A stretch of 64,000 bases of DNA from a virus (Duplodnaviria > Caudoviricetes): the IMG/VR virus record IMGVR_UViG_3300014047_000002, positions 35,129-99,128 of that record. One strand, 5' to 3'. Of the stretch, positions 5,628 through 31,100 are shown piece by piece. The notes under the pieces are model-generated. The model worked only from the letters and a program-made list of their open reading frames with translations. It had not been told where the DNA came from and made no database searches. The position numbers were made by a program, and so were the translations under genes. The number at the start of each line of letters is the position of its first letter. Within the stretch, counting starts at the first letter, position 1.

Positions 5628-5949
5628 AACTTTATTGATTTTACTTATGGGAGGTGATCCCCATTCAGATGCTCTTTATCTCCGCACCATAAAGGCCGTT
5701 TGAACTCCTAGCAAATTCCACCGCTTGCTTTCCATGCAGCACTGATTTATAAAATCAATTTTGTTAATCTTATATTTAAAAGGTTATACTTTCCGCTTAG
5801 TTGTTACTTTCTGATAAAGAATCGATTACTTTCTAATATCATACCGGCATACGTTCTCTTAATAAGGTATTACTACCAATATTGGTGAGAATTACTGCAT
5901 TGCATCGGGTTTATTAACCTCTTAAACAATTTGGTTATTTTGTGTGTAT

Positions 5950-5965
5950 CAATATGTCAAAGAAC
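5950..5965 (-). promoter_or_regulatory. rRNA-type boxA antitermination element
   Basis: GTTCTTTGACATATTG about 25 nt downstream of the promoter; resembles bacterial rrn boxA (GYTCTTT-A). Confidence 0.6.
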
Positions 5966-5989
5966 TATTGTTTATTGTTTTGAACAGTG

Positions 5990-6017
5990 CAAAGATACGA
6001 ACTATTTTTGAATCAAA
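5990..6017 (-). promoter_or_regulatory. Bacteroidota primary-sigma promoter driving the tRNA array
   Basis: TTTG(-33)..TATCTTTG(-7, consensus TAnnTTTG) followed by CA. Confidence 0.8.
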
Positions 6018-6067
6018 AAAATTTTTTGAAGAAAAAGTTCAATTCTTTAACGTTGTTTAACAATTAG

Positions 6068-6167
6068 TGTACACAGGAGGGCTCGAACCTCCAACCGCAT
6101 TTGCCTAGAATTTTCGCGCGGTACCAGCGTTTGAAGCTAGCGCGTTTACCACTTTCGCCACATGTAC
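6068..6167 (-). tRNA. tRNA-Leu(CAA) with extra-long variable arm
   Basis: CTAGC-TTCAAAC-GCTGG; Leu-type D-loop GGTAAAC; variable ACCGCG..TGCGGT with 17-nt loop; A73. Confidence 0.8.
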
Positions 6168-6187
6168 ATCTTTATATATTATATTAA

Positions 6188-6391
6188 TTATTTTCCTTTT
6201 TTAATAAACGTTGCTATCTCTTTAGCTCGCTTTAATATTTTTTCAAAATCTTGGTAATCCTTACCTTGCACCATTGGTTTATAATATTGCAATGCTGCAC
6301 TAATTCCCAAAAAATTAATTCTTTCTTCTTTTGTAAAACCTTCAAATAAGGTACTACTTACATTTGTATCGTCTCCGTTTGTTGTAATCAT
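6188..6391 (-). CDS. hypothetical protein (67 aa)
   Basis: ATG..TAA ORF with plausible composition between tRNAs. Confidence 0.6.
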   Translation of the reverse strand: MITTNGDDTNVSSTLFEGFTKEERINFLGISAALQYYKPMVQGKDYQDFEKILKRAKEIATFIKKGK

Positions 6392-6413
6392 ATTCTAAAT
6401 TATTTAAATCATG

Positions 6414-6486
6414 CAGGGGGAGTTGGATTCGAACCAACAACTTCATGATTAAGCACTCGTGCGCTCTACCGTTGAGCTATCCCCCC
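6414..6486 (-). tRNA. tRNA (Lys CTT-like) with 8-nt anticodon loop
   Basis: Canonical D and T arms; CACGA-GTGCTTAA-TCATG. Confidence 0.6.
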
Positions 6487-6514
6487 AATGGTTATATTGA
6501 AAATCCTCGCCATA

Positions 6515-6795
6515 ACCATCGAATGTGCTTCGTGTGTTCAGGACCTTTAACTTAAAGCTTTGACAAAACCCCATTGTGTTATCCAATTCACCAACGCGCC
6601 ATAATTATAGTTTGTTAGTAGAGGCGCGTACGAGATTCGAACTCGTTATAATGGGAATTTCATGATGTACACGAACGCGCTATCCTGACACTCCGCTTTG
6701 ACTGTGACTCTAAAGCTCTTGACACAATGCTTATGCTAAAATCTAGGATTCTGATAATGCTAATTGTAAATCTAAAGCTTTCGTCAATATGTCAA
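6515..6795 (-). ncRNA. circularly permuted tRNA-like RNA with flanking hexamer repeats
   Basis: 3' half (6622-6655: CCCAT..ACGAG-TTCGAAT-CTCGT-ACGCGCC-T) lies upstream of 5' half (6570-6600: GGCGCGT-TG-GTGA..ACAC-A-ATGGG); 21-nt linker; outer limits approximate. Confidence 0.7.
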
Positions 6796-6812
6796 TTTAT
6801 ATTATTCTATTT

Positions 6813-7013
6813 TTAATATCTACTCTTAAAGAACCAGATAAGTAATGCTATGATTATTATCCATAAAAGCACTCCACCATAAAGAGGAAGTAGTACCAAC
6901 CACCATGACCAATCAATATAATGTGTAAGCTTTAATACTATGAATACTATACCAAGCAAACCAAAAAATCCGATTCCACTGCTTGAGCTGCTTGAACTAC
7001 TTGAACCTGGCAT
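6813..7013 (-). CDS. small membrane protein (SSSSGIGF..IVFIVLKL..IDWSWW family, common in phages)
   Basis: Poly-Ser N-terminus, two hydrophobic helices, WSWW motif. Confidence 0.8.
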   Translation of the reverse strand: MPGSSSSSSSSSGIGFFGLLGIVFIVLKLTHYIDWSWWLVLLPLYGGVLLWIIIIALLIWFFKSRY

Positions 7014-7030
7014 TGTTTAAATCATTAATT

Positions 7031-7834
7031 TTACTTTCCGAAATGAATGAAATCAACAAGTGCATCAACATTCAAATTCTCAGCCATAACTTCTTGGTCA
7101 TTTACCTCCTTCAAAGCGGCGATAACGGCCTTAAGAACACGGCTTCTACGATCCAAAAGATCTGCCTTCTGACGCTGTGACCATTCACCAGTAAACTTCT
7201 GGAATGTGTAATCACCAGTCTCTACTGTTCTCTTCTTCTGTACAACAGCTGCACGATAGTTCTCAGGAATATTTGCAGGATTAATATTTGGATCCTTCAA
7301 AATAACATCCTCTGTTTCTGTAGTACGTGTAACACCCTTTACCATCTCTGTCTCAAGTACCTCACGATCCTTATACTCCACATTCTTAGAAGGTGTCCAA
7401 ACCTCAGAATCAGAATAAACAGGAATACGCTCATACATTGTAACAAGCTCCTTAGAAGTAAGAATGCTCTTCAAACGCATCAAATCAAGTGCAGTCAACT
7501 CACCAAATGAAACACCATCAACAACGAGTTCAACTTTCTTTGCACCAGCAGAATTTGTAGCCTCTACCTGGAAAACTTCCTTCAAGTAATTCTTTGCTAC
7601 CTTATCACCAAACCAATCAAGCTGTTCCTTAACAGTAGTCTGTACATTTGTAGTACCCTGCTTGGTTGGGTCCTCAGAATAACCCTCACGAGGTGTAAAT
7701 GTTTTCTTCTCACCACGGAAAGCACCCTGACTCTTCTTAAAATACTCAGCATACTCATTTACTTCTTTATTATAAACTGATGCTGAATGATCAACCTTGG
7801 CAAGCAAGGTATTCATCTTTACTGCGTTACTCAT
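7031..7834 (-). CDS. conserved hypothetical alpha-helical protein (267 aa)
   Basis: Long TAG-free ORF with strongly biased codons (AAG, GAG, GGT, CAG); family not verified. Confidence 0.85.
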   Translation of the reverse strand: MSNAVKMNTLLAKVDHSASVYNKEVNEYAEYFKKSQGAFRGEKKTFTPREGYSEDPTKQGTTNVQTTVKEQLDWFGDKVAKNYLKEVFQVEATNSAGAKKVELVVDGVSFGELTALDLMRLKSILTSKELVTMYERIPVYSDSEVWTPSKNVEYKDREVLETEMVKGVTRTTETEDVILKDPNINPANIPENYRAAVVQKKRTVETGDYTFQKFTGEWSQRQKADLLDRRSRVLKAVIAALKEVNDQEVMAENLNVDALVDFIHFGK

Positions 7835-8015
7835 AAATCTAAATTATTTTATTTGTTAATGTTTAAATGTTATATTGTATTTCAAATTAAATGTTTACTT
7901 AATTTTTAAATTTTTTATATCTTTATTTCTAAGTAAATATCTCATTTATTTGAGTTACGAATTAATATATTCTATCTAATTATTAAAGTCTGTTTTTTAA
8001 TTGCTAAAACATATT

Positions 8016-12749: not shown

Positions 12750-13319
12750 ATGGCTCAAAATATAAATAAAGATTATAAAAAGAAACATAAACCGCTATCT
12801 GAATAGAAATCACATTTCCATCAAGGTTATTATATTCCAAGAAACAGAGAAAAATGTTTAACTGCAGAAAATATATACAGATCTAGTTGGGAAGCAAAAT
12901 TCTTCAGATGGTGTGATGATTGCCCTTAGGTTATTCGATGGGCAAGTGAGCCTGTTGCAATAAAATATAAAAATCCCGTTGCTAATTTAGAATATTGTGT
13001 TAAAAATAATTTAAACCCAAATGATCCAAGATACTGGAAAATATGTAATTATTATACAGATGTATGGATTGAATTATAGACACAATCAGGAAATATAAGA
13101 AAGATTTTTATAGAGATAAAGCCATATGCACAAACACAGATGCCAAAACCTTTACAAGAAGGTGCATCATTAAAAGAGCATAAAGCATTTAACAGAGAGG
13201 CAGAAACATATTTAGTGAATAAAGCAAAATGGGAAGCTGCTGCAAAAGAATTTAATGCAAGAGGTGCAGAATTTATGGTAGTAACAGAAAAGACATTATC
13301 AAAGTTAGGATTATTATAA
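12750..13319 (+). CDS. head completion nuclease (T4 gp4-like, TnsA-type fold), 189 aa
   Basis: YRSSWEAKFFRWCD..WASEP..YYTD..IEIKPYAQT..NKAKWEAA..VTEKTL; missed by the ORF track because of TAGs. Confidence 0.85.
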
Positions 13320-13324
13320 AAATT

Positions 13325-13352
13325 AAAGGTGAGAAAATTAATTCTCACCTTT
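13325..13352. terminator. hairpin between convergent genes
   Basis: AAAGGTGAGAA/TTCTCACCTTT inverted repeat. Confidence 0.6.
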
Positions 13353-14504
13353 CTTTATATTAAACATAATCAATAAACTTATAAAGTATAATACTGCAAG
13401 TATTCCGAATAATGATTCATAACTCCAATGTAAAGTATTCAATACTAAATTAGAAATCTGATTACCGGATAATCCTGCCCATGCCCATGCAGATAATGCA
13501 AATCCATGTATTGTACTTATTTGTGTCATACCAAATTTACTCTGTAAAAGTGTTGGAAGTGTAGAAAAACCTCCACCATAACCTGCATTAATAATACATA
13601 ACATTGCCGGTATAAACAATAACCAAATACATCCCATCAACATTCCTATAAAAGAACTTGCAAAGATTACTATATAAATCCATTCTTTCCTATCTACAAA
13701 ATCCGAAGATGTTGAATAACCAAATCTTCCTATTGTATTAAACAATGCAGTAAATGCTGCAAGAATTCCTATATTAGTTAATCCGGCATAAAGTCCGATA
13801 GATTTCTCAAATGAAATCAATGCCAAACCACATGTAATATTCAAATAGAAAATCAGCCATATTTTCAAATATGTATAATCTGAAATAATATGCCAATAAT
13901 CTTTTATATTATGTTTTATTTGTGGTTCTTTCCAATCCAACGGTTTTCTTATCAAATATGTTGCACATGACATTAATACAATACTAATTAACGCCATAAT
14001 TATTAATGTATGATAAATGGAATGAGCATTATTACACCATTCAATAAAAGGTGAAAATAATACCTTTGATAATCCAAATCCAGAAATAGCAATACCTGTA
14101 GCCAATCCTTTATGCTTACTAAACCAAAGCATCAATGTTTTTACCGGTGACAAATATCCTATTCCTAATCCAATACCCATTAAACATCCATAACTAAGCA
14201 TAAGACCTAACACGCTATGCATCATAATAGATACAACAGATAATCCTAAGCCTCCTGTAAAACATAGCATGGATATAAATGATGATTGCTTTACATTTTT
14301 TTCAACAAACGTTCCACCAAACGCTGCAGACATACCCAAGAAAAATATAGCAAGAGAAAAAGCAAACTCTATACTAGACACTGTACAACCTATTTCTTGA
14401 GCAATCTCATCTTTTAAAAGTGACCAGCAATAAACACTGCCGATACATGAATGCAGTAAGAGTGCGGGTACTGCTGCCCTTAACCATTTATTTTCAAGAC
14501 TCAT
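13338..14504 (-). CDS. MFS transporter, oxalate/formate antiporter (OFA/OxlT-like) family
   Basis: About 12 TM helices; motifs GSVYCWS, GIGLGIGYLSPVKTLMLWF..KGLATGIAISGFG, YGGGFSTLP. Confidence 0.9.
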   Translation of the reverse strand: MSLENKWLRAAVPALLLHSCIGSVYCWSLLKDEIAQEIGCTVSSIEFAFSLAIFFLGMSAAFGGTFVEKNVKQSSFISMLCFTGGLGLSVVSIMMHSVLGLMLSYGCLMGIGLGIGYLSPVKTLMLWFSKHKGLATGIAISGFGLSKVLFSPFIEWCNNAHSIYHTLIIMALISIVLMSCATYLIRKPLDWKEPQIKHNIKDYWHIISDYTYLKIWLIFYLNITCGLALISFEKSIGLYAGLTNIGILAAFTALFNTIGRFGYSTSSDFVDRKEWIYIVIFASSFIGMLMGCIWLLFIPAMLCIINAGYGGGFSTLPTLLQSKFGMTQISTIHGFALSAWAWAGLSGNQISNLVLNTLHWSYESLFGILAVLYFISLLIMFNIKKGEN

Positions 14505-17342: not shown

Positions 17343-17642
17343 TTATCTTTTATGTTTAAGCCATTCCAAAAATTCACTAAGGTTTACTCTTACTTCCTCA
17401 ACACCTATCCCTGTTTCGCTACATTCATCAAAGAAACTAATAGTTACTACAATAATATCATTATATTCAATATAGCTGATACCTGTAACATGTGGTTCTT
17501 CTTCAGACATTTGTGATATATCTAATTCATAATCATCTATAATTCGTTTAATATCTTTTTTAAGATATTTCTCTAAATAAGTATAAAGTTCCCTTGTTTT
17601 CTTAATACAAAGCTCAAACTCTTTAATTGTACTTTCTTTCAT
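17343..17642 (-). CDS. hypothetical protein
   Basis: Operon ORF. Confidence 0.7.
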   Translation of the reverse strand: MKESTIKEFELCIKKTRELYTYLEKYLKKDIKRIIDDYELDISQMSEEEPHVTGISYIEYNDIIVVTISFFDECSETGIGVEEVRVNLSEFLEWLKHKR

Positions 17643-17653
17643 AATTAATTATT

Positions 17654-17899
17654 TTACATTGATGTTGATCCTAACCATGAAAATGAATTTCTTGCAGCTG
17701 CTTCTGCTCTATCAGAAACCTCACGTTCACATTCATGAAATTTACTATAAGTATCATCAAAATTAGGATATTGTAAATTATGAGTATCTAAATACTCTTT
17801 AAATGCTTCATATTTTTTACAAAGAGCACGTACCCTACATTCATAGGTTCTATGTCTAAATCCTGTATATTCTCCTGTACAATATGTACGTTCTTTCAT
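17654..17899 (-). CDS. hypothetical protein
   Basis: TAATG coupling with upstream gene. Confidence 0.7.
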   Translation of the reverse strand: MKERTYCTGEYTGFRHRTYECRVRALCKKYEAFKEYLDTHNLQYPNFDDTYSKFHECEREVSDRAEAAARNSFSWLGSTSM

Positions 17900-18129
17900 T
17901 ATTCTATAGGTTTTAATTTATCTTCAAAATATTTGCTTAATAACCATTCTTCTTTACCATTATCATAAACATGACATAATTCATAGTAAATACAAGTATG
18001 AAGTTTACCATCTTCCAATTTAACTGTCCAAGTACTTACAGACATAACTCTACATTTCCATGGTTTATCTTCATCACAATCTTGATAATAAACAAGATCA
18101 CCAATACTATATTTTGTTTTTATATCCAT
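17899..18129 (-). CDS. hypothetical protein (SH3/KOW-like start TKYSIGDLVY)
   Basis: Operon ORF. Confidence 0.7.
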   Translation of the reverse strand: MDIKTKYSIGDLVYYQDCDEDKPWKCRVMSVSTWTVKLEDGKLHTCIYYELCHVYDNGKEEWLLSKYFEDKLKPIE

Positions 18130-18132
18130 AAA

Positions 18133-19449
18133 TTAATCACCCCCATCTGCTGCTTTAATATTAATCTTAGGTATCATCATATGCTTAATTACACAAGTAT
18201 CTGTAATTAAGTTTTTAATTTCATCTGTATCTTTATAAGCCATCGGTGACTCATCGATAGTACCTTTGCAAACAGTTGTAGAATATACATTTATCATAGA
18301 TTCTTTATATTCTTCCATTGAAATATTCTGCTTAGCCTTAGAGCGGGACATTTTTCTTCCGGCACCATGTGCACATGAATTTAGCCATTCTGAATTTGAA
18401 AGACCTTCACAAATTGCAATACCATCTCTCATATTAAATGGTACCAGCATTTCCTCACCTTCATATGCTCGTATTGCAGACTTTCTTAAAATATGGTCAT
18501 GAAGATCAATAAAATTATGAGTGGATGTAATTGTTCTTATCTCTTTAATTCCATATTTAATAAGAATGTCCTTAATTATCTTTTGCACAGTCATATGATT
18601 ATATTGTGCATAAAGCTGTGCAAAACACATATCACAAAGATAGCCTTTCATATATTCTCCTGAAAGATAACCATTAATATGATTTACAGAAAGTCCTTTA
18701 ATAAATTCTTCTTTAGCTTTTTGAAATTCCTTGTTATTAGAATGTGTTTTCTTATATTCCTGTTTAAAATTCTTTAATGCTTCTTTCATCTCTTCCTTTG
18801 GCATAGGCTGATTTGCTTTTTGCATCCAATATTTACAAACCTTTACACCAAAATTACGAGATCCAAAATGTAATGTTACTCCTGCTAAATCATCCTCTGT
18901 AGATTCGTCATATTCAATAAAATGATTACCTCCACCTACTGTTCCTAATGATTTATAAAAAGTGCCTTCATCCATATTCAACCTCTTAAGCTGCTCAGTA
19001 ATCCATTTTTCTGTTACTTGATCCGGAAGATTCATCAGCATTTCAGGCCAGAAATTACGATATTTGTTAAATCCTTGAGTAAGAAATTGTCTAAACTGTC
19101 TTTCATCAATAATTACATGATCATTAAGTTCAAAGCCAAATGGAACATTATTTTTTATACGATGTTCAAATTCAGAATATTTAACCTTTGGAACTTTCTT
19201 ATCCAATATCATCATTGATACAGTACATCCAATATCAACACCAATATGTTCTGGACAAATATAATCGCCAATAGTTGTAACTAATCCACATGGACCTGAT
19301 GGTCCTACATGTACATCTGGCATACATACAACAGTTTGATTAGCAAATGCTGGACAATTAATTATATCATATACTTGTCCATATACATCTGCCTCTATAG
19401 TATCAGCAAATATTTTTGCTGTTGTATATTTTCCTGTTAACTCTATCAT
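18133..19449 (-). CDS. rtcB: RtcB family RNA 2',3'-cyclic phosphate/5'-OH ligase
   Basis: MPDVH, GVDIGC, LGTVGGGNHFIE, HFGSR, HN, HGAGR, DESPMAYK motifs. Confidence 0.95.
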   Translation of the reverse strand: MIELTGKYTTAKIFADTIEADVYGQVYDIINCPAFANQTVVCMPDVHVGPSGPCGLVTTIGDYICPEHIGVDIGCTVSMMILDKKVPKVKYSEFEHRIKNNVPFGFELNDHVIIDERQFRQFLTQGFNKYRNFWPEMLMNLPDQVTEKWITEQLKRLNMDEGTFYKSLGTVGGGNHFIEYDESTEDDLAGVTLHFGSRNFGVKVCKYWMQKANQPMPKEEMKEALKNFKQEYKKTHSNNKEFQKAKEEFIKGLSVNHINGYLSGEYMKGYLCDMCFAQLYAQYNHMTVQKIIKDILIKYGIKEIRTITSTHNFIDLHDHILRKSAIRAYEGEEMLVPFNMRDGIAICEGLSNSEWLNSCAHGAGRKMSRSKAKQNISMEEYKESMINVYSTTVCKGTIDESPMAYKDTDEIKNLITDTCVIKHMMIPKINIKAADGGD

Positions 19450-20454: not shown

Positions 20455-21033
20455 TTAATATCTTTTAGTTCCATCTTGACATAAATCATTATATTGTTTT
20501 AGTTCTTCACATTTATTTGGTAAATTATGACATTTTAATAAATGTTGAAAGCGTAATTCAAAATTTAATGCCATCGGATTCTGAAACCATTTTCTATTTA
20601 ATACTTTTATTGCACGTATTGCTTCTGTTTCTGTAATACCATCTTCATAATTAGTTTGTACAAAATGGTATAACTGAGAATCCCACATATCACCATCATC
20701 ATCAATTATAACATAGTTATCAATTTCTGAATGATTATTAAGATACTGCTGGATTTCCCCACCTCTACCATTACCTAAACCTACCCATGGTGTTACATCA
20801 TAAAGGTTATCAATTAACCAATATAGCATTTTATTCCTTGGACATCTTTTTTCTTTATAAACCATACTTTTTCTAGTTTCTTCAACAGTCTGCATACGCC
20901 AAGAAGATGAAACAACAATTTTTGCTGCTGTTTCATCTACTATCCTCTTAATCAATTTTATTTTATCTGCTTTAAGATACCATTTTGGAGGAATTGTAAT
21001 AACGCCATCGAAATCTAGAAATATTACTTTCAT
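20455..21033 (-). CDS. HAD-family phosphatase (Swiss-Army-Knife RNA-repair HAD-like)
   Basis: IFLDFDGV, IVVSSSWR, RGGEIQQYL, YVIIDDD, FVQT..GIT. Confidence 0.85.
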   Translation of the reverse strand: MKVIFLDFDGVITIPPKWYLKADKIKLIKRIVDETAAKIVVSSSWRMQTVEETRKSMVYKEKRCPRNKMLYWLIDNLYDVTPWVGLGNGRGGEIQQYLNNHSEIDNYVIIDDDGDMWDSQLYHFVQTNYEDGITETEAIRAIKVLNRKWFQNPMALNFELRFQHLLKCHNLPNKCEELKQYNDLCQDGTKRY

Positions 21034-28167: not shown

Positions 28168-31100
28168 ATGGCAGATAAAGTTAATTATAAGGCACTAATA
28201 AAGTTCTCAGAAACATCAAGAACTGCTATTTTAGACGTAAATGAATTATTTAATATTAGTACTAATGACATATATAGTACAAATATAATATTTGATGAAA
28301 ATAATGATTTATTTACACCAGAAGTTATATAGTTTTTAGAAACAAATGGATTTAGAATAAATGGACATCATATTTTAAAAGATGGTGAATTTAATATTTA
28401 TAAAAATGAAGATATTCCAGAAAGCTATATTACAGAGCATGCAGAAGAAACATATTTAAATAAAAAAATTAATTATAGTATCTATACTTATAATACAGAT
28501 ATAGATGCTATATATACTTTGTCTTTTGATAAATTTAATTTACCTGATAATTTTTCTGAATTATATTTTACTTTCGATATATAGGTAAAAAGTGCAGAAA
28601 ATAGTAATATTTTATCATTTCCTGTATCTGTTAATATTGTCAGTATTACTTCAAAATTATTACAGCTTTATAACTATTAGGCTAATATAATTGGAGATGA
28701 TACTGGAAGTTTTATGGTACTTAGGACAAATCCTAAACTTACTGGTAATATAAAGCTTGTTGTTACAGAGGATTATAAATTATATTTAGATACATTTAAA
28801 GTTAGCAGTGCAAGTATTTTGAATGAACGAAAATATCGTCATCAATCAGTTGCTGCTAATGGTAATTATGCACATGATGTAAAAACTATTTTTTCTGATC
28901 TGCCAAAAGGAGTTTTATATAATGTACATAGTGATGCATATTTGCCACATAAGAATTATTATGATATTAATATTCAAGTAGAAAATACATATGAGTATGG
29001 TGCAGAAAATAACTTTGATTCTTTATATACCGAAAATATGAAGATATTGGCACCACTTTATATTTCCAAAAAATTACCTGATTACTTCTGTATTTTTAAA
29101 ACTGATAATATTATTAATGCGGAAACATATAATAATGCAAAAATTGATGATTTATCAAAATTAAAAGATGCATTAAAGAATCCTCAAATAGTAAAAATAT
29201 TTGATTTAAGAAATTCTACATCAATAGGATAGTATTTAAAAACATATGCAGATCTTATTAATGCAGAAATACAAGGCGCATGCCATTTACAATTCTTAGA
29301 ATAGAATTTTCGTAAGGTGACAGATGAAAATTATCGTCAAGGAAGAAATACATGGTATGGTATTGATATTAATAAAGGAATAATTACAAAGAAAGTAGAG
29401 ACCAGTTATTTTGGTTCAAAAATATTAGAAAACGAAGAGCAACGCCAGGAAAAATATAATATGTATATTTTAAATGGCTTTGAAAGAAATAATTTGTTAT
29501 ATCCTAATATTATTAATCTTGAATTCATGTTCAATGATGAAGATGCAGCTAATATGTCAATGCATAATTATTTCGGATTATATTTAACAGAGAATCAATT
29601 TATAAAATTCAATAGTATTACATCAAGCTCTGATAATAATTCTGTTATTACATATTTTGATATAAACAATAATGAATTATCTTCAAATGAAGTAAACTTG
29701 GATATTTTAGAAAATGATGATTATGCAGATCGTATTTTCTTTATGAGCACAACTACAGATGCTGCATATGTAAACAGTAAATTGAATATTAATACATTTA
29801 TAAAGAAATATGTTAATAATATTCCTGGTAAAAACATATGTAATATTAAAGCAGATACAAAGGATTTCAAAGATATTAATAACTTTATATCAATGAAATT
29901 TACAAAGCCTATATAGTTTGGTGAACATTTCAAATTTATATTTATGCATAATTATACAAATACAGAAACACTTGTATTTGATATAATTGCATCTAATGAT
30001 ATTCGATTAAGATATACAAAAGATAATATTAATCCTTATATAAGTACAAATACCCCTGATGATGTAACAAAAGATATAAGTATATTTAGCTCTATTTTCC
30101 GTACATCATTTTATACATAGGATTTATCAGATCCTAATAAAACAGCATCTCTTGATATTCAATTATAGCGTATACAAGCATGTATCAGAAAATTTGCTGG
30201 CAGTAATATTTTTGTAGGAAGTATTAATAATGATGCAATAAGTTTTTGTGTAACTTATAATGAGGATGATATTGCATATAATGATGTATATTTTCAACAT
30301 ATATTAGCAGATAATGCTGAACAAGATTATATAAGGTATTATAATTTTAATAGAGTTTATAATACTGACATATTAGAATATAATAATGATTTATATCCTG
30401 ATAATCTCGTAGGATTTTCTAATAATGGTTTAGAACTTACAGGTAATAGAAAGCATACAATTATTAAATTTATAAACACAAATAAGATAAAAGATAATTT
30501 TATTTGTGAAGTTAATTATGACTTATATAAAGATCTTAAGAATATTATATCTCCTATTGTTAATACAATAAAGGGTTATTATCCATTGTTAAAATATAAT
30601 ATTATTCAAGGTTCTATAAAATATAAAAATCCAAAGGATGTATACATTTTTGATGAAAATAATAATATATCAAATTTCTTAGATGATTTAAAAGAAAATA
30701 TATTTTATGAATTTTGCGTAATATCACCATTTAATGTATCTAATCATATTGTATTATCACCATTTAAAGTAAGATTAATAAATTCTTACATTAATATTTG
30801 CGCTCCAAAAACTGCAGCACTTTCATTAATGGGTATTAATAATATAATGGATATTGATACATGGATTAATAATGAAGAAACAATCAAATATAAGAAACAA
30901 GCAGGAGTATCTATTAAAGCCGGTCAAAAATTATATATAGGAAAAGATATAAAATTATATACTACATATCGTTTAACATCCGGAAATATTAGAAATATTC
31001 CATCAGGTAATAATGTTACATTTGCAATATATGGAGATAATATTATATATACTTATAATGATTCTGTATATACAGTAAAACTTCCAAATGAGTATTTGCT

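What the first reader, a model, noticed from the sequence alone, without database searches (positions are those of the whole stretch)
6515..7834. Circularly permuted tRNA-like RNA with hexamer repeats downstream of a 267-aa conserved gene
Seen: on the minus strand the 3' tRNA half (CCCAT, T-arm, ACGCGCC-T) precedes the 5' half (GGCGCGT, D-arm, ATGGG), separated by 21 nt. The acceptor is a perfect 7 bp with U73, Cys-like. In place of an anticodon loop the two flanks can pair in crossed, pseudoknot order (TCAGGA/TCCTGA and TTCGTGT/ACACGAA). The flanks carry 6-nt-periodic repeats (GCTTTA GATTTA CAATTA GCATTA; 6699-6778 and 6547-6563). One frame of the repeats reads KALDLQLALSES*ILA-stop, an X-Leu alternating, tag-like peptide with no start codon. 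Established: permuted two-piece tmRNAs and permuted tRNAs exist, but tmRNA has an Ala G3.U70 acceptor and no D-stem. Inference: a new two-piece tRNA/mRNA-hybrid or scaffold RNA that works with the upstream helical protein (7031-7834), for example in ribosome rescue/tagging or as a repeat-bound ribonucleoprotein.
Basis: partly seen in the sequence, partly recalled or inferred. Interest (0 to 1): 0.88.

Follow-up and report, generated by a model that had tools for sequence, protein, structure and literature searches.

The report
tRNA-mimic RNA beside DUF7873 gene
A giant gut phage encodes a roughly 305-base folded RNA with a back-to-front, anticodon-less tRNA look-alike; it travels with an unstudied protein (DUF7873), often beside a hidden Ro60-like gene, so it looks like an undescribed cousin of bacterial Y RNAs and not a tRNA or a protein-tagging RNA.

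Summary
On the minus strand, 6655-6570 is a complete tRNA-shaped domain in permuted order, with a capped acceptor stem. It recurs in 34 of 42 related phage loci, 19 of 19 Bacteroidales assemblies and 2 of 2 distant relatives. All four stems covary (96.5% paired; 18 of 20 pairs changed on both sides).

It is one domain of a ~305-nt RNA (6792-6487). The RNA also has a covarying 5' hairpin, nested long-range helices, three tracks of AGCYUN hexamers and a 3' hairpin. A tRNA gene abuts its 3' end.

It is neither a decoding tRNA nor a tmRNA:
- No anticodon loop can form.
- None of 23 sequences has G3.U70.
- The "Ala-Leu tag" is just the hexamer read in frame, with early stops in relatives.

The upstream 267-aa protein is Pfam DUF7873. 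RNA and gene co-occur even where they lie 177-187 kb apart.

New here: in 30 of 42 relatives a divergent Ro60-like gene, which Pfam TROVE misses, sits directly upstream of DUF7873. This phage has one 13 kb away with its own permuted tRNA-like RNA, and also has RtcB.

Best reading: a YrlA-like Y-RNA-type scaffold.

This scan has flagged DUF7873-linked tRNA-mimic RNAs before on other DNA. I found no publication.

The parts
6487..6792 (-). Whole non-coding RNA, about 305 nt, from just 5' of helix P1 to the end of the 3' hairpin. The exact 5' end is not mapped.
   Evidence: Conserved block downstream of DUF7873 in relatives. It stands alone, about 187 kb from the DUF7873 gene, in a complete 553-kb relative.
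6719..6787 (-). P1 hairpin domain: strands TTGACG (6787-6782) and TGTCAA (6724-6719). It encloses hexamer track 1 (6779-6756), a small hairpin (6752-6738) and track 1b (6737-6726).
   Evidence: On a MAFFT alignment P1 is 98.9% paired and 5 of 6 pairs change on both sides; slid controls give 28-44%.
6700..6717 (-). Hexamer track 2 (AGCTTT AGAGTC ACAGTC)
   Evidence: Hexamer weights: A1 0.91, G2 0.72, C3 0.55, T5 0.88; positions 4 and 6 are free.
6682..6691 (-). 5' strands of the long-range helices: P3 (GTG, weak in this sequence) and P4 (CAGGAT)
   Evidence: Each RNA's own flanks pair better than flanks swapped between RNAs: -18.4 against -11.2 kcal/mol, 0 of 20,000 permutations. Helices listed.
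6659..6675 (-). Linker hairpin TTCGTG-TACAT-CATGAA
   Evidence: Read from the sequence. Relatives have a hairpin of different sequence at the same place.
6570..6655 (-). Permuted tRNA-like domain: anticodon-stem 3' strand, T arm, acceptor stem capped by a 22-nt loop (U73-CUA...UUAU), D arm, anticodon-stem 5' strand
6548..6559 (-). Hexamer track 3 (AGCTTT AAGTTA)
6534..6544 (-). 3' strands of P4 (GTCCTG) and P3 (CAC), followed by the conserved GAA
6488..6519 (-). 3' terminal hairpin ATGGTTAT/ATAACCAT with the conserved GAGGAT loop motif
   Evidence: In relatives it is followed by a T-run terminator (L159, L161, L167) or, as here, by a tRNA gene.
6413..6486 (-). tRNA gene abutting the RNA's 3' end (8-nt anticodon loop). 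RNase P cleavage at its 5' end would define the RNA's 3' end (inferred).
7031..7834 (-). DUF7873 protein gene (267 aa)
   Evidence: Pfam PF25283, E 1.4e-32. AlphaFold2 pLDDT 95.6 with no clear fold match.
6813..7013 (-). 66-aa membrane-like ORF inserted between DUF7873 and the RNA. It is not part of the conserved pair.
   Evidence: phrog_1374. Absent at this place in most relatives.

Best explanation
Window 6792-6487 (minus strand) is a structured non-coding RNA of the Y-RNA/YrlA kind. Shown: nested long-range helices (P3/P4) join its 5' and 3' parts. On top of them sits a tRNA-shaped head with a T arm, a D arm, a 7-bp acceptor stem capped by a loop that starts U73-C74, and an anticodon stem that opens into a junction instead of a loop. 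The rest carries about ten single-stranded AGCYUN hexamers in three tracks, a covarying 5' hairpin and a 3' hairpin with a conserved GAGGAU loop. The RNA co-occurs with DUF7873, and in many relatives with a divergent Ro60-like gene. Inferred: the hexamer tracks are binding sites for several copies of a protein, most likely DUF7873. The tRNA head is a handle for tRNA-recognising enzymes. RNase P at the abutting tRNA makes the 3' end. I put about even odds on RNase P also opening the capped acceptor and the CCA-adding enzyme repairing the 3' side, as in M. smegmatis YrlA. The particle would then act with the phage's Ro60-like ring and RtcB in RNA surveillance or repair during infection.
For: Covariation in all four head helices, in P1 and in P3/P4. 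Head found beside DUF7873 in 34/42 viral loci. The 8 exceptions are 6 Lak-type loci, one deletion and one contig end. Of the Lak-type records, the 2 held for searching have the RNA 177-187 kb from the gene. Also 19/19 Bacteroidales loci and 2/2 relatives at 29-30% identity. C74 is invariant (23/23), U73 is present in 22/23, and L167 and L198 encode a true U73-CCA. M. smegmatis YrlA has a 7-bp acceptor; it is cut by RNase P and gains CCA in vivo (PMC4201824). The gene directly upstream of DUF7873 in 30/42 relatives carries DUF2828+DUF7788. Its model matches Ro60 over both domains: Foldseek top 13 hits are all Ro60 (E 1e-6 to 7e-4), and VIA gives Z 12-14 over 380-408 residues. This genome has a DUF2828+DUF7788 gene with its own permuted tRNA-like head. 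It also has RtcB and an RNA-repair HAD domain 11-14 kb from the RNA.
Against: There are no transcript, end-mapping or binding data. Rfam's YrlA model does not match. The Ro60-binding motif GNCGAAN0-1G is not conserved. The DUF7873 model gives no RNA-binding fold match. The Ro60-like model is of middling quality (pLDDT 70). Adjacency to the Ro60-like gene holds in one phage group only; it is absent within 1.5 kb upstream in the window, the Bacteroidales loci and the distant relatives. Co-occurrence does not show which protein binds the RNA.
Confidence: 0.7

Rival explanations
1. The RNA is the Y RNA of the Ro60-like protein only. On this reading DUF7873 is a co-operonic effector or an unrelated neighbour that does not bind the RNA.
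For: Ro60-like gene directly upstream of DUF7873 in 30/42 relatives. Y RNAs are by definition Ro60 partners. Bacteroides thetaiotaomicron, one of the control genomes, carries a TROVE gene.
Against: The RNA follows DUF7873, not the Ro60-like gene, in the window, in 19 Bacteroidales loci and in distant relatives, where no Ro60-like gene lies within 1.5 kb upstream. In this genome the Ro60-like gene has a different permuted RNA of its own. There is no conserved Ro-binding motif.
Confidence: 0.15
2. The RNA is a decoy or sponge. The tRNA-shaped head soaks up a host tRNA-targeting defence enzyme, or the hexamer tracks titrate a host RNA-binding protein, with no stable phage particle.
For: It lies in a phage tRNA array. 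The neighbouring tRNA shows fast-changing anticodon loops. Repeat tracks resemble sponge RNAs of the CsrB/RsmZ type (my own knowledge).
Against: The same RNA-gene pair occurs in bacterial assemblies, though those may be prophages. The head lacks the anticodon loop that most known tRNA nucleases cut. Strict co-occurrence with DUF7873 needs another explanation.
Confidence: 0.1
3. It is a true circularly permuted tRNA gene. The halves would be cut out and joined at the anticodon, for example by the phage RtcB, to give a decoding tRNA.
For: Permuted order with a perfect 7-bp acceptor. The phage has RtcB and intron-bearing tRNAs (PMC6784885).
Against: No 7-nt anticodon loop or consistent anticodon can be built from the flanks in any of 18 sequences. 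The flanks are conserved, covarying structure and are not discardable leader or trailer. Rfam finds no intron.
Confidence: 0.03
4. It is a two-piece tmRNA-like RNA that tags stalled proteins with an Ala/Leu-rich peptide.
For: Permuted tRNA-like domain plus start-less short frames beginning with GCN.
Against: 0/23 sequences have G3.U70. The D stem is present and covaries. ARAGORN finds no tmRNA. The frame is 4 to about 19 codons long with varying ends. In the hexamer, the base at the codon's third place (A1) is 91% conserved while the middle base (N6) varies freely, including to stop codons. The main track lies on the wrong side of the head relative to known two-piece tmRNAs (my own knowledge).
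Confidence: 0.02

Closest known systems
YrlA (Y RNA-like A, Rfam RF02553), especially the M. smegmatis form; Chen et al. 2014 (PMC4201824), Wang et al. 2018 (bioRxiv 10.1101/312249)
   Same: tRNA-shaped domain in the order T arm, loop-capped acceptor stem, D arm, opened at the anticodon end and seated on a stem formed by distal 5' and 3' sequences. tRNA tertiary marks are kept. The 7-bp acceptor stem is the feature that lets RNase P cut the M. smegmatis RNA. It sits in an RNA-repair neighbourhood with RtcB, with a Ro60-type gene nearby in many relatives.
   Different: No match to the Rfam model and no conserved GNCGAAN0-1G motif. It is about twice as long. It has three AGCYUN hexamer tracks, a 5' hairpin domain and a 3' hairpin with a GAGGAU loop. 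Its constant neighbour is DUF7873. The Ro60-like gene is a divergent DUF2828+DUF7788 form and is not always adjacent.
Circularly permuted tRNA genes of Cyanidioschyzon merolae, some green algae and Thermofilum pendens (my own knowledge)
   Same: 3' half, short intervening sequence, then 5' half.
   Different: Those genes mature through a circular intermediate into a normal tRNA with an anticodon loop. Here no anticodon loop can form, and the flanks are conserved structure.
Two-piece (permuted) tmRNA
   Same: Permuted tRNA-like domain, possibly cut into two base-paired pieces.
   Different: No alanine identity, a real D stem and anticodon stem, and no conserved tag frame.
Repeat-motif protein-binding RNAs such as CsrB/RsmZ (my own knowledge)
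   Same: Many copies of a short single-stranded motif on one RNA.
   Different: Different motif and strict 6-nt phasing in tracks. The motif sits in unpaired tracts instead of hairpin loops, and the RNA is coupled to a tRNA mimic.

Membership tests
YrlA / bacterial Y RNA (RF02553) | tRNA-like domain with T arm, capped acceptor stem and D arm, and no anticodon loop | tested here: met
YrlA / bacterial Y RNA (RF02553) | Match to the Rfam covariance model | tested here: not met
   No RF02553 hit at E <= 10 on window 5900-7100 with permissive filters
YrlA / bacterial Y RNA (RF02553) | Conserved Ro60-contact motif GNCGAAN0-1G near the 5' end | tested here: not met
   The window reads GACGAAAG, but that G is a covarying P1 position (T, A or C in relatives)
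YrlA / bacterial Y RNA (RF02553) | Encoded near a Ro60/Rsr gene | tested here: inconclusive
   No Pfam TROVE hit in 5 records, 3 of them at least 90% complete. A DUF2828+DUF7788 protein with a Ro60-like model lies directly upstream of DUF7873 in 30/42 relatives, and 13 kb away in this genome.
YrlA / bacterial Y RNA (RF02553) | Bound by Ro60 in cells | not testable with these tools
   Needs immunoprecipitation
Circularly permuted tRNA gene | 3' half upstream of the matching 5' half | tested here: met
Circularly permuted tRNA gene | Outer ends can be joined into a 7-nt anticodon loop with a conserved anticodon | tested here: not met
   Flank bases next to the anticodon stem differ in every lineage and give no U33-NNN-R37 loop. 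They continue into conserved helices and tracks.
Two-piece tmRNA | G3.U70 alanine identity | tested here: not met
   0 of 23; pair 3-70 is C-G in 15
Two-piece tmRNA | Conserved tag reading frame | tested here: not met
Two-piece tmRNA | Recognised by ARAGORN, which also looks for tmRNA genes | tested here: not met
DUF7873-linked tRNA-mimic RNA (named only in this scan's earlier notes) | Lies just downstream of a DUF7873 gene, or co-occurs with one in the genome | tested here: met
DUF7873-linked tRNA-mimic RNA (named only in this scan's earlier notes) | Two permuted tRNA-like heads on one RNA | tested here: not met
   There is one head per RNA here and in every relative I fetched. Within the RNA's own span only one place scores above 25 bits. 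I did not fetch a two-headed example myself.

The most novel reading that the evidence does not exclude
The capped acceptor is opened by RNase P and given a CCA end. This yields a two-piece particle with a free, possibly chargeable, tRNA-like 3' end. DUF7873 protomers coat the 6-nt-phased tracks, and the particle works with a divergent Ro60-like ring and RtcB as a phage-encoded tRNA repair or counter-defence machine.
Probability: 0.2. Interest if true: 0.8.

Novelty: new variant of a known kind. Interest (0 to 1): 0.62.

Why it matters
Y RNAs that mimic tRNA are known only as Ro60 partners, and the factor that reads their tRNA-like domain is still unknown. Here a related architecture is tied to a different, widespread and unstudied protein (DUF7873; 267 clusters at 50% identity). 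It carries a regular hexamer code that predicts how a protein would bind. In gut phages the pair sits in one operon with a Ro60-like gene that standard domain searches miss. That gives a concrete three-part system (Ro60-like, DUF7873, RNA) to test. It also suggests Ro60-type RNA surveillance is more common in phages than TROVE counts show. Finally, it warns that "permuted tRNA genes" in phage tRNA arrays may be mimics.

Tried and rejected
- **Permuted group I intron.** I considered an intron that would circularise the tRNA. There is no conserved G before the 3' exon, Rfam finds no intron, and the flanks are conserved for other reasons.
- **Hexamer pattern scan.** Scanning viral contigs for TTACAATTARCATTA gave 120+ unrelated AT-rich hits and was useless.
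- **TTGAC as a -35 promoter box.** It is a covarying helix strand.
- **Cas7 likeness of DUF7873.** Cas7 would have fitted the 6-nt period. Foldseek's top rows were Cascade and Csm backbone subunits, but at E 0.02-0.1 and TM 0.11. The VIA second look gave no Cas7 row at Z >= 2 and the wide search gave only helical bundles at Z <= 5.9. Not supported.
- **Loop-loop pairing.** AAUCCU in the P1 hairpin could pair with AGGAUU in the 3' hairpin loop. This is possible in the Lak-like group, but both sequences are invariant there and the pairing is not evident in distant relatives. Left open.
- **Hexamers pairing with each other.** AGCCUU-type tracks (L166, L167) are not palindromic, so the tracks are direct repeats and not helix strands.
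- **Shared 10-mer.** TTTAGATTTA occurs both at the DUF7873 start codon (7843-7834) and in track 1 (6776-6767). By a rough estimate chance alone could give this (about 0.07), and only some lineages have a hexamer at the start codon.
- **Minimum-free-energy fold.** It recovers the acceptor, P4 and the 3' hairpin but mispairs the T and D arms. z = -2.15.
- **Tools unavailable.** Burroughs and Aravind 2016 (PMC5062991) is not held, so I could not read what it says about Ro-independent tRNA-like RNAs. The search for related loci could not use alignments of the most distant DUF7873 proteins.

Full report
**Source.** The window is part of a 99-kb fragment (CheckV 18% complete) of a Lak-type gut megaphage. 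Its closest relatives are contigs of 416-554 kb. Lak phages infect Prevotella, read TAG as Gln, and have tRNA arrays and highly expressed intergenic regions (PMC6784885). The finding lies at the edge of a minus-strand tRNA array.

**Check of the observation.** In order: anticodon-stem 3' strand CCCAT; a 4-nt variable region; T arm ACGAG-TTCGAAT-CTCGT; ACGCGCC; U73; 21 further bases; GGCGCGT; a D arm with GG; ATGGG.

ARAGORN and Rfam do not call it. A locus with a protein only 42% identical has the same layout with every stem replaced compensatorily.

I built a covariance model of the permuted cloverleaf (R1).
- It scores the window at 76.4 bits; the next best place in the window scores 25 bits.
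- On 23 distinct homologues, 96.5% of cells pair. 18 of 20 pairs change on both sides. Slid controls give 35-50%. That alignment is fitted to the model, so the slid controls are the fair comparison.
- tRNA tertiary marks are kept: U8-A14 in 20/23 and G15-C48 in 17/23. The window has a double change to U15/A48.

The structure is real and selected.

**The whole RNA.** The head is one domain of a conserved RNA of about 305 nt.
- **5' hairpin (P1).** TTGACG/TGTCAA looks like a -35 box but covaries (TTGACC/GGTCAA, TCGACT/AGTCGA, ATACCT/AGGTAT, AATCACT/AGTGATT). On an ordinary MAFFT alignment it is 98.9% paired with 5 of 6 pairs changed on both sides.
- **Hexamer tracks.** Inside and after P1, and again after the head, lie tracks of direct hexamers. 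With the phase-setting copies excluded, the weights are A1 0.91, G2 0.72, C3 0.55, N4, T5 0.88, N6.
- **Long-range helices (P3 outer, P4 inner).** These pair the 5' flank with the 3' flank. Each RNA's own flanks pair far better than flanks swapped between 15 RNAs: -18.4 against -11.2 kcal/mol, 0 of 20,000 permutations.
TCAGGA/TCCTGA is P4. TTCGTGT/ACACGAA is peculiar to this sequence. It overlaps a hairpin (TTCGTG-TACAT-CATGAA) that stands where relatives have a hairpin of other sequence. In relatives, including a complete Lak genome, P3 is nested outside P4 and not crossed.
- **3' end.** The RNA ends in a hairpin with a conserved GAGGAU / GAAGGAWAUUGA loop. In three lineages a T-run terminator follows. 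Elsewhere, as here, a tRNA gene follows.

**Not a decoding tRNA.** The bases next to the anticodon stem differ in every lineage and never give a U33-NNN-R37 loop. They run on into conserved tracks and helices.

**Not a tmRNA.**
- None of 23 sequences has G3.U70.
- The D stem is present and covaries.
- ARAGORN reports no tmRNA.
- The "KALDLQLALSES" frame stops at the fifth codon in most relatives (AAA GCT TTA GCT TAA).
- The Ala-Leu look follows necessarily from reading AGCNUN-A as GCN-UNA. The base at the codon's third place (A1) is the most conserved. The middle base (N6) varies freely, including to UAA and UGA. That is the reverse of selection on a peptide.

**The protein link.** The 267-aa protein is Pfam DUF7873 (E 1.4e-32). 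It has 447 homologous clusters at 90% identity and 267 at 50%.

| Set searched with R1 | Head found |
|---|---|
| Viral loci, same strand just downstream | 34 of 42 |
| Bacteroidales assembly loci | 19 of 19 |
| Relatives at 29-30% identity | 2 of 2 |

The eight viral exceptions are:
- six Lak-type loci;
- one locus with an internal deletion that keeps both RNA ends;
- one contig that ends inside the RNA.

Of the Lak-type records, the two held for searching were tested. The complete RNA is present 177-187 kb from the gene, with its own upstream region. Gene and RNA therefore stay together in the genome even when unlinked.

The AlphaFold2 model of DUF7873 is confident (pLDDT 95.6). It has three long helices, a long beta hairpin and small sheets. 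It has no convincing match in PDB or BFVD.

**A hidden Ro60-like partner.** Pfam TROVE finds nothing in five related records, three of them at least 90% complete, although the controls respond. Model R1 found a second permuted head in this genome, 6 kb outside the window. It lies directly upstream of a 467-aa DUF2828+DUF7788 protein.

In the 170-190-kb phage group, which is 30 of the 42 loci, a 583-600-aa protein with the same two families ends a few bases before the DUF7873 start codon. Its model has pLDDT 70.
- The top 13 Foldseek hits are all Ro60: frog, human, Deinococcus and Thermus phage, E 1e-6 to 7e-4.
- VIA gives Z 12-14 over 380-408 residues spanning both the ring and the vWA domain. 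vWA-only hits give Z about 10 over 160-200 residues.

That group therefore has the operon Ro60-like, DUF7873, RNA, tRNA. The window also encodes RtcB (18133-19449) and an RNA-repair HAD domain (20455-21033). This echoes the Salmonella rsr-yrlBA-rtcBA arrangement (my own recollection; the parts of PMC4201824 I read do not spell out that operon).

**How it probably works.**
- Shown: the fold, the repeats, and the co-occurrence with DUF7873 and, in part, with a Ro60-like gene.
- Inferred: a Y-RNA-type scaffold. The 6-nt-phased single-stranded tracks suit several protomers of one protein, and DUF7873 is the obvious candidate. The head, with its intact elbow and 7-bp acceptor, suits tRNA-reading enzymes.
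- The cap always begins N73-C74 (C74 in 23/23; U73 in 22/23). It is usually UCUA, and it is a true UCCA in L167 and L198. Before G1 the sequence is usually ACAU. The cap varies from 18 to 131 nt.
- In M. smegmatis, YrlA with a 7-bp acceptor is cut by RNase P and gains CA onto an encoded C in vivo. I give about even odds that this RNA is likewise opened into pieces of about 171 and 114 nt. No RNA data could be obtained.

**Comparison and novelty.** It works like YrlA but fails three of YrlA's defining tests: the Rfam model, the Ro motif and a canonical TROVE neighbour. It also has parts YrlA lacks. No held paper contains the term DUF7873, and Rfam 15 has no family for the RNA.

This scan has noted DUF7873-linked tRNA-mimic RNAs many times on other DNA, usually as two-headed and "Ro60-independent". 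Those are unchecked notes. What I add by test:
- this clade has a single permuted head followed by an ordinary tRNA gene;
- the RNA persists when unlinked from the gene;
- a divergent Ro60-like gene is often in the same operon, which weakens the "Ro-independent" reading for this clade.

Noticed in passing
L191:1501-1586 (- strand; G000 contig 28827-28912, about 6 kb before the window start): A second, different permuted tRNA-like head (R1 51 bits). It lies directly upstream of a 467-aa DUF2828+DUF7788 (Ro60-like family) gene at L191:64-1467. Rfam gives no hit there.
   Followed up: partly
window 6413-6486 (-); L133, L138, L152-L156, L160-L163; L170-L177: The tRNA gene abutting the RNA's 3' end has an orthologous body across relatives, but its anticodon loop changes: GTT, TTT, CTT, TTC with odd bases at 32-33. 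The window copy has an 8-nt loop, GTGCTTAA. In the Bacteroidales set the anticodons are GCA, TGC, AGT and TGT on one body with A73. This could be anticodon switching under pressure from host nucleases, or a non-decoding tRNA-like partner.
   Followed up: partly
window 18133-19449 (-) and 20455-21033 (-): RtcB RNA ligase (E 8e-57) and a HAD domain of 'Swiss Army Knife' RNA-repair proteins (E 3e-22), 11-14 kb from the RNA.
   Followed up: no
The first four bases (UCUA) and the last four (ACAU) stay fixed.
   Followed up: no
L150:2300-2560: One relative has a deletion running from track 1b into the acceptor-cap insertion. It removes the T arm but keeps both ends of the RNA.
   Followed up: no
window 12750-13319 (+) and 13338-14504 (-): A TnsA-like endonuclease ORF that needs TAG read as Gln, next to a major-facilitator transporter gene. 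Both are unusual cargo for a phage.
   Followed up: no
G003 contig 17605-17691 and 17854-17935; G001 contig 184697-184782: Further permuted tRNA-like heads (R1 37-45 bits) lie 4-5 kb from the DUF7873 RNA in complete or near-complete 175-188-kb relatives. These phages therefore carry several tRNA mimics.
   Followed up: no
window 7834-7843 (-) and 6767-6776 (-): The 10-mer TTTAGATTTA occurs at the DUF7873 start codon and in hexamer track 1. L154 and L155 also have a hexamer (AGCATT, AGCTTT) directly before their ATG. This may hint at autoregulation or may be chance.
   Followed up: partly
window 5946-5984 (-) and 6783-6799 (-): TTGACATATTGA recurs. It matches the 5' part of the Rfam DUF2693 RNA motif at sub-threshold score, and may be a phage promoter-like element.
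   Followed up: no
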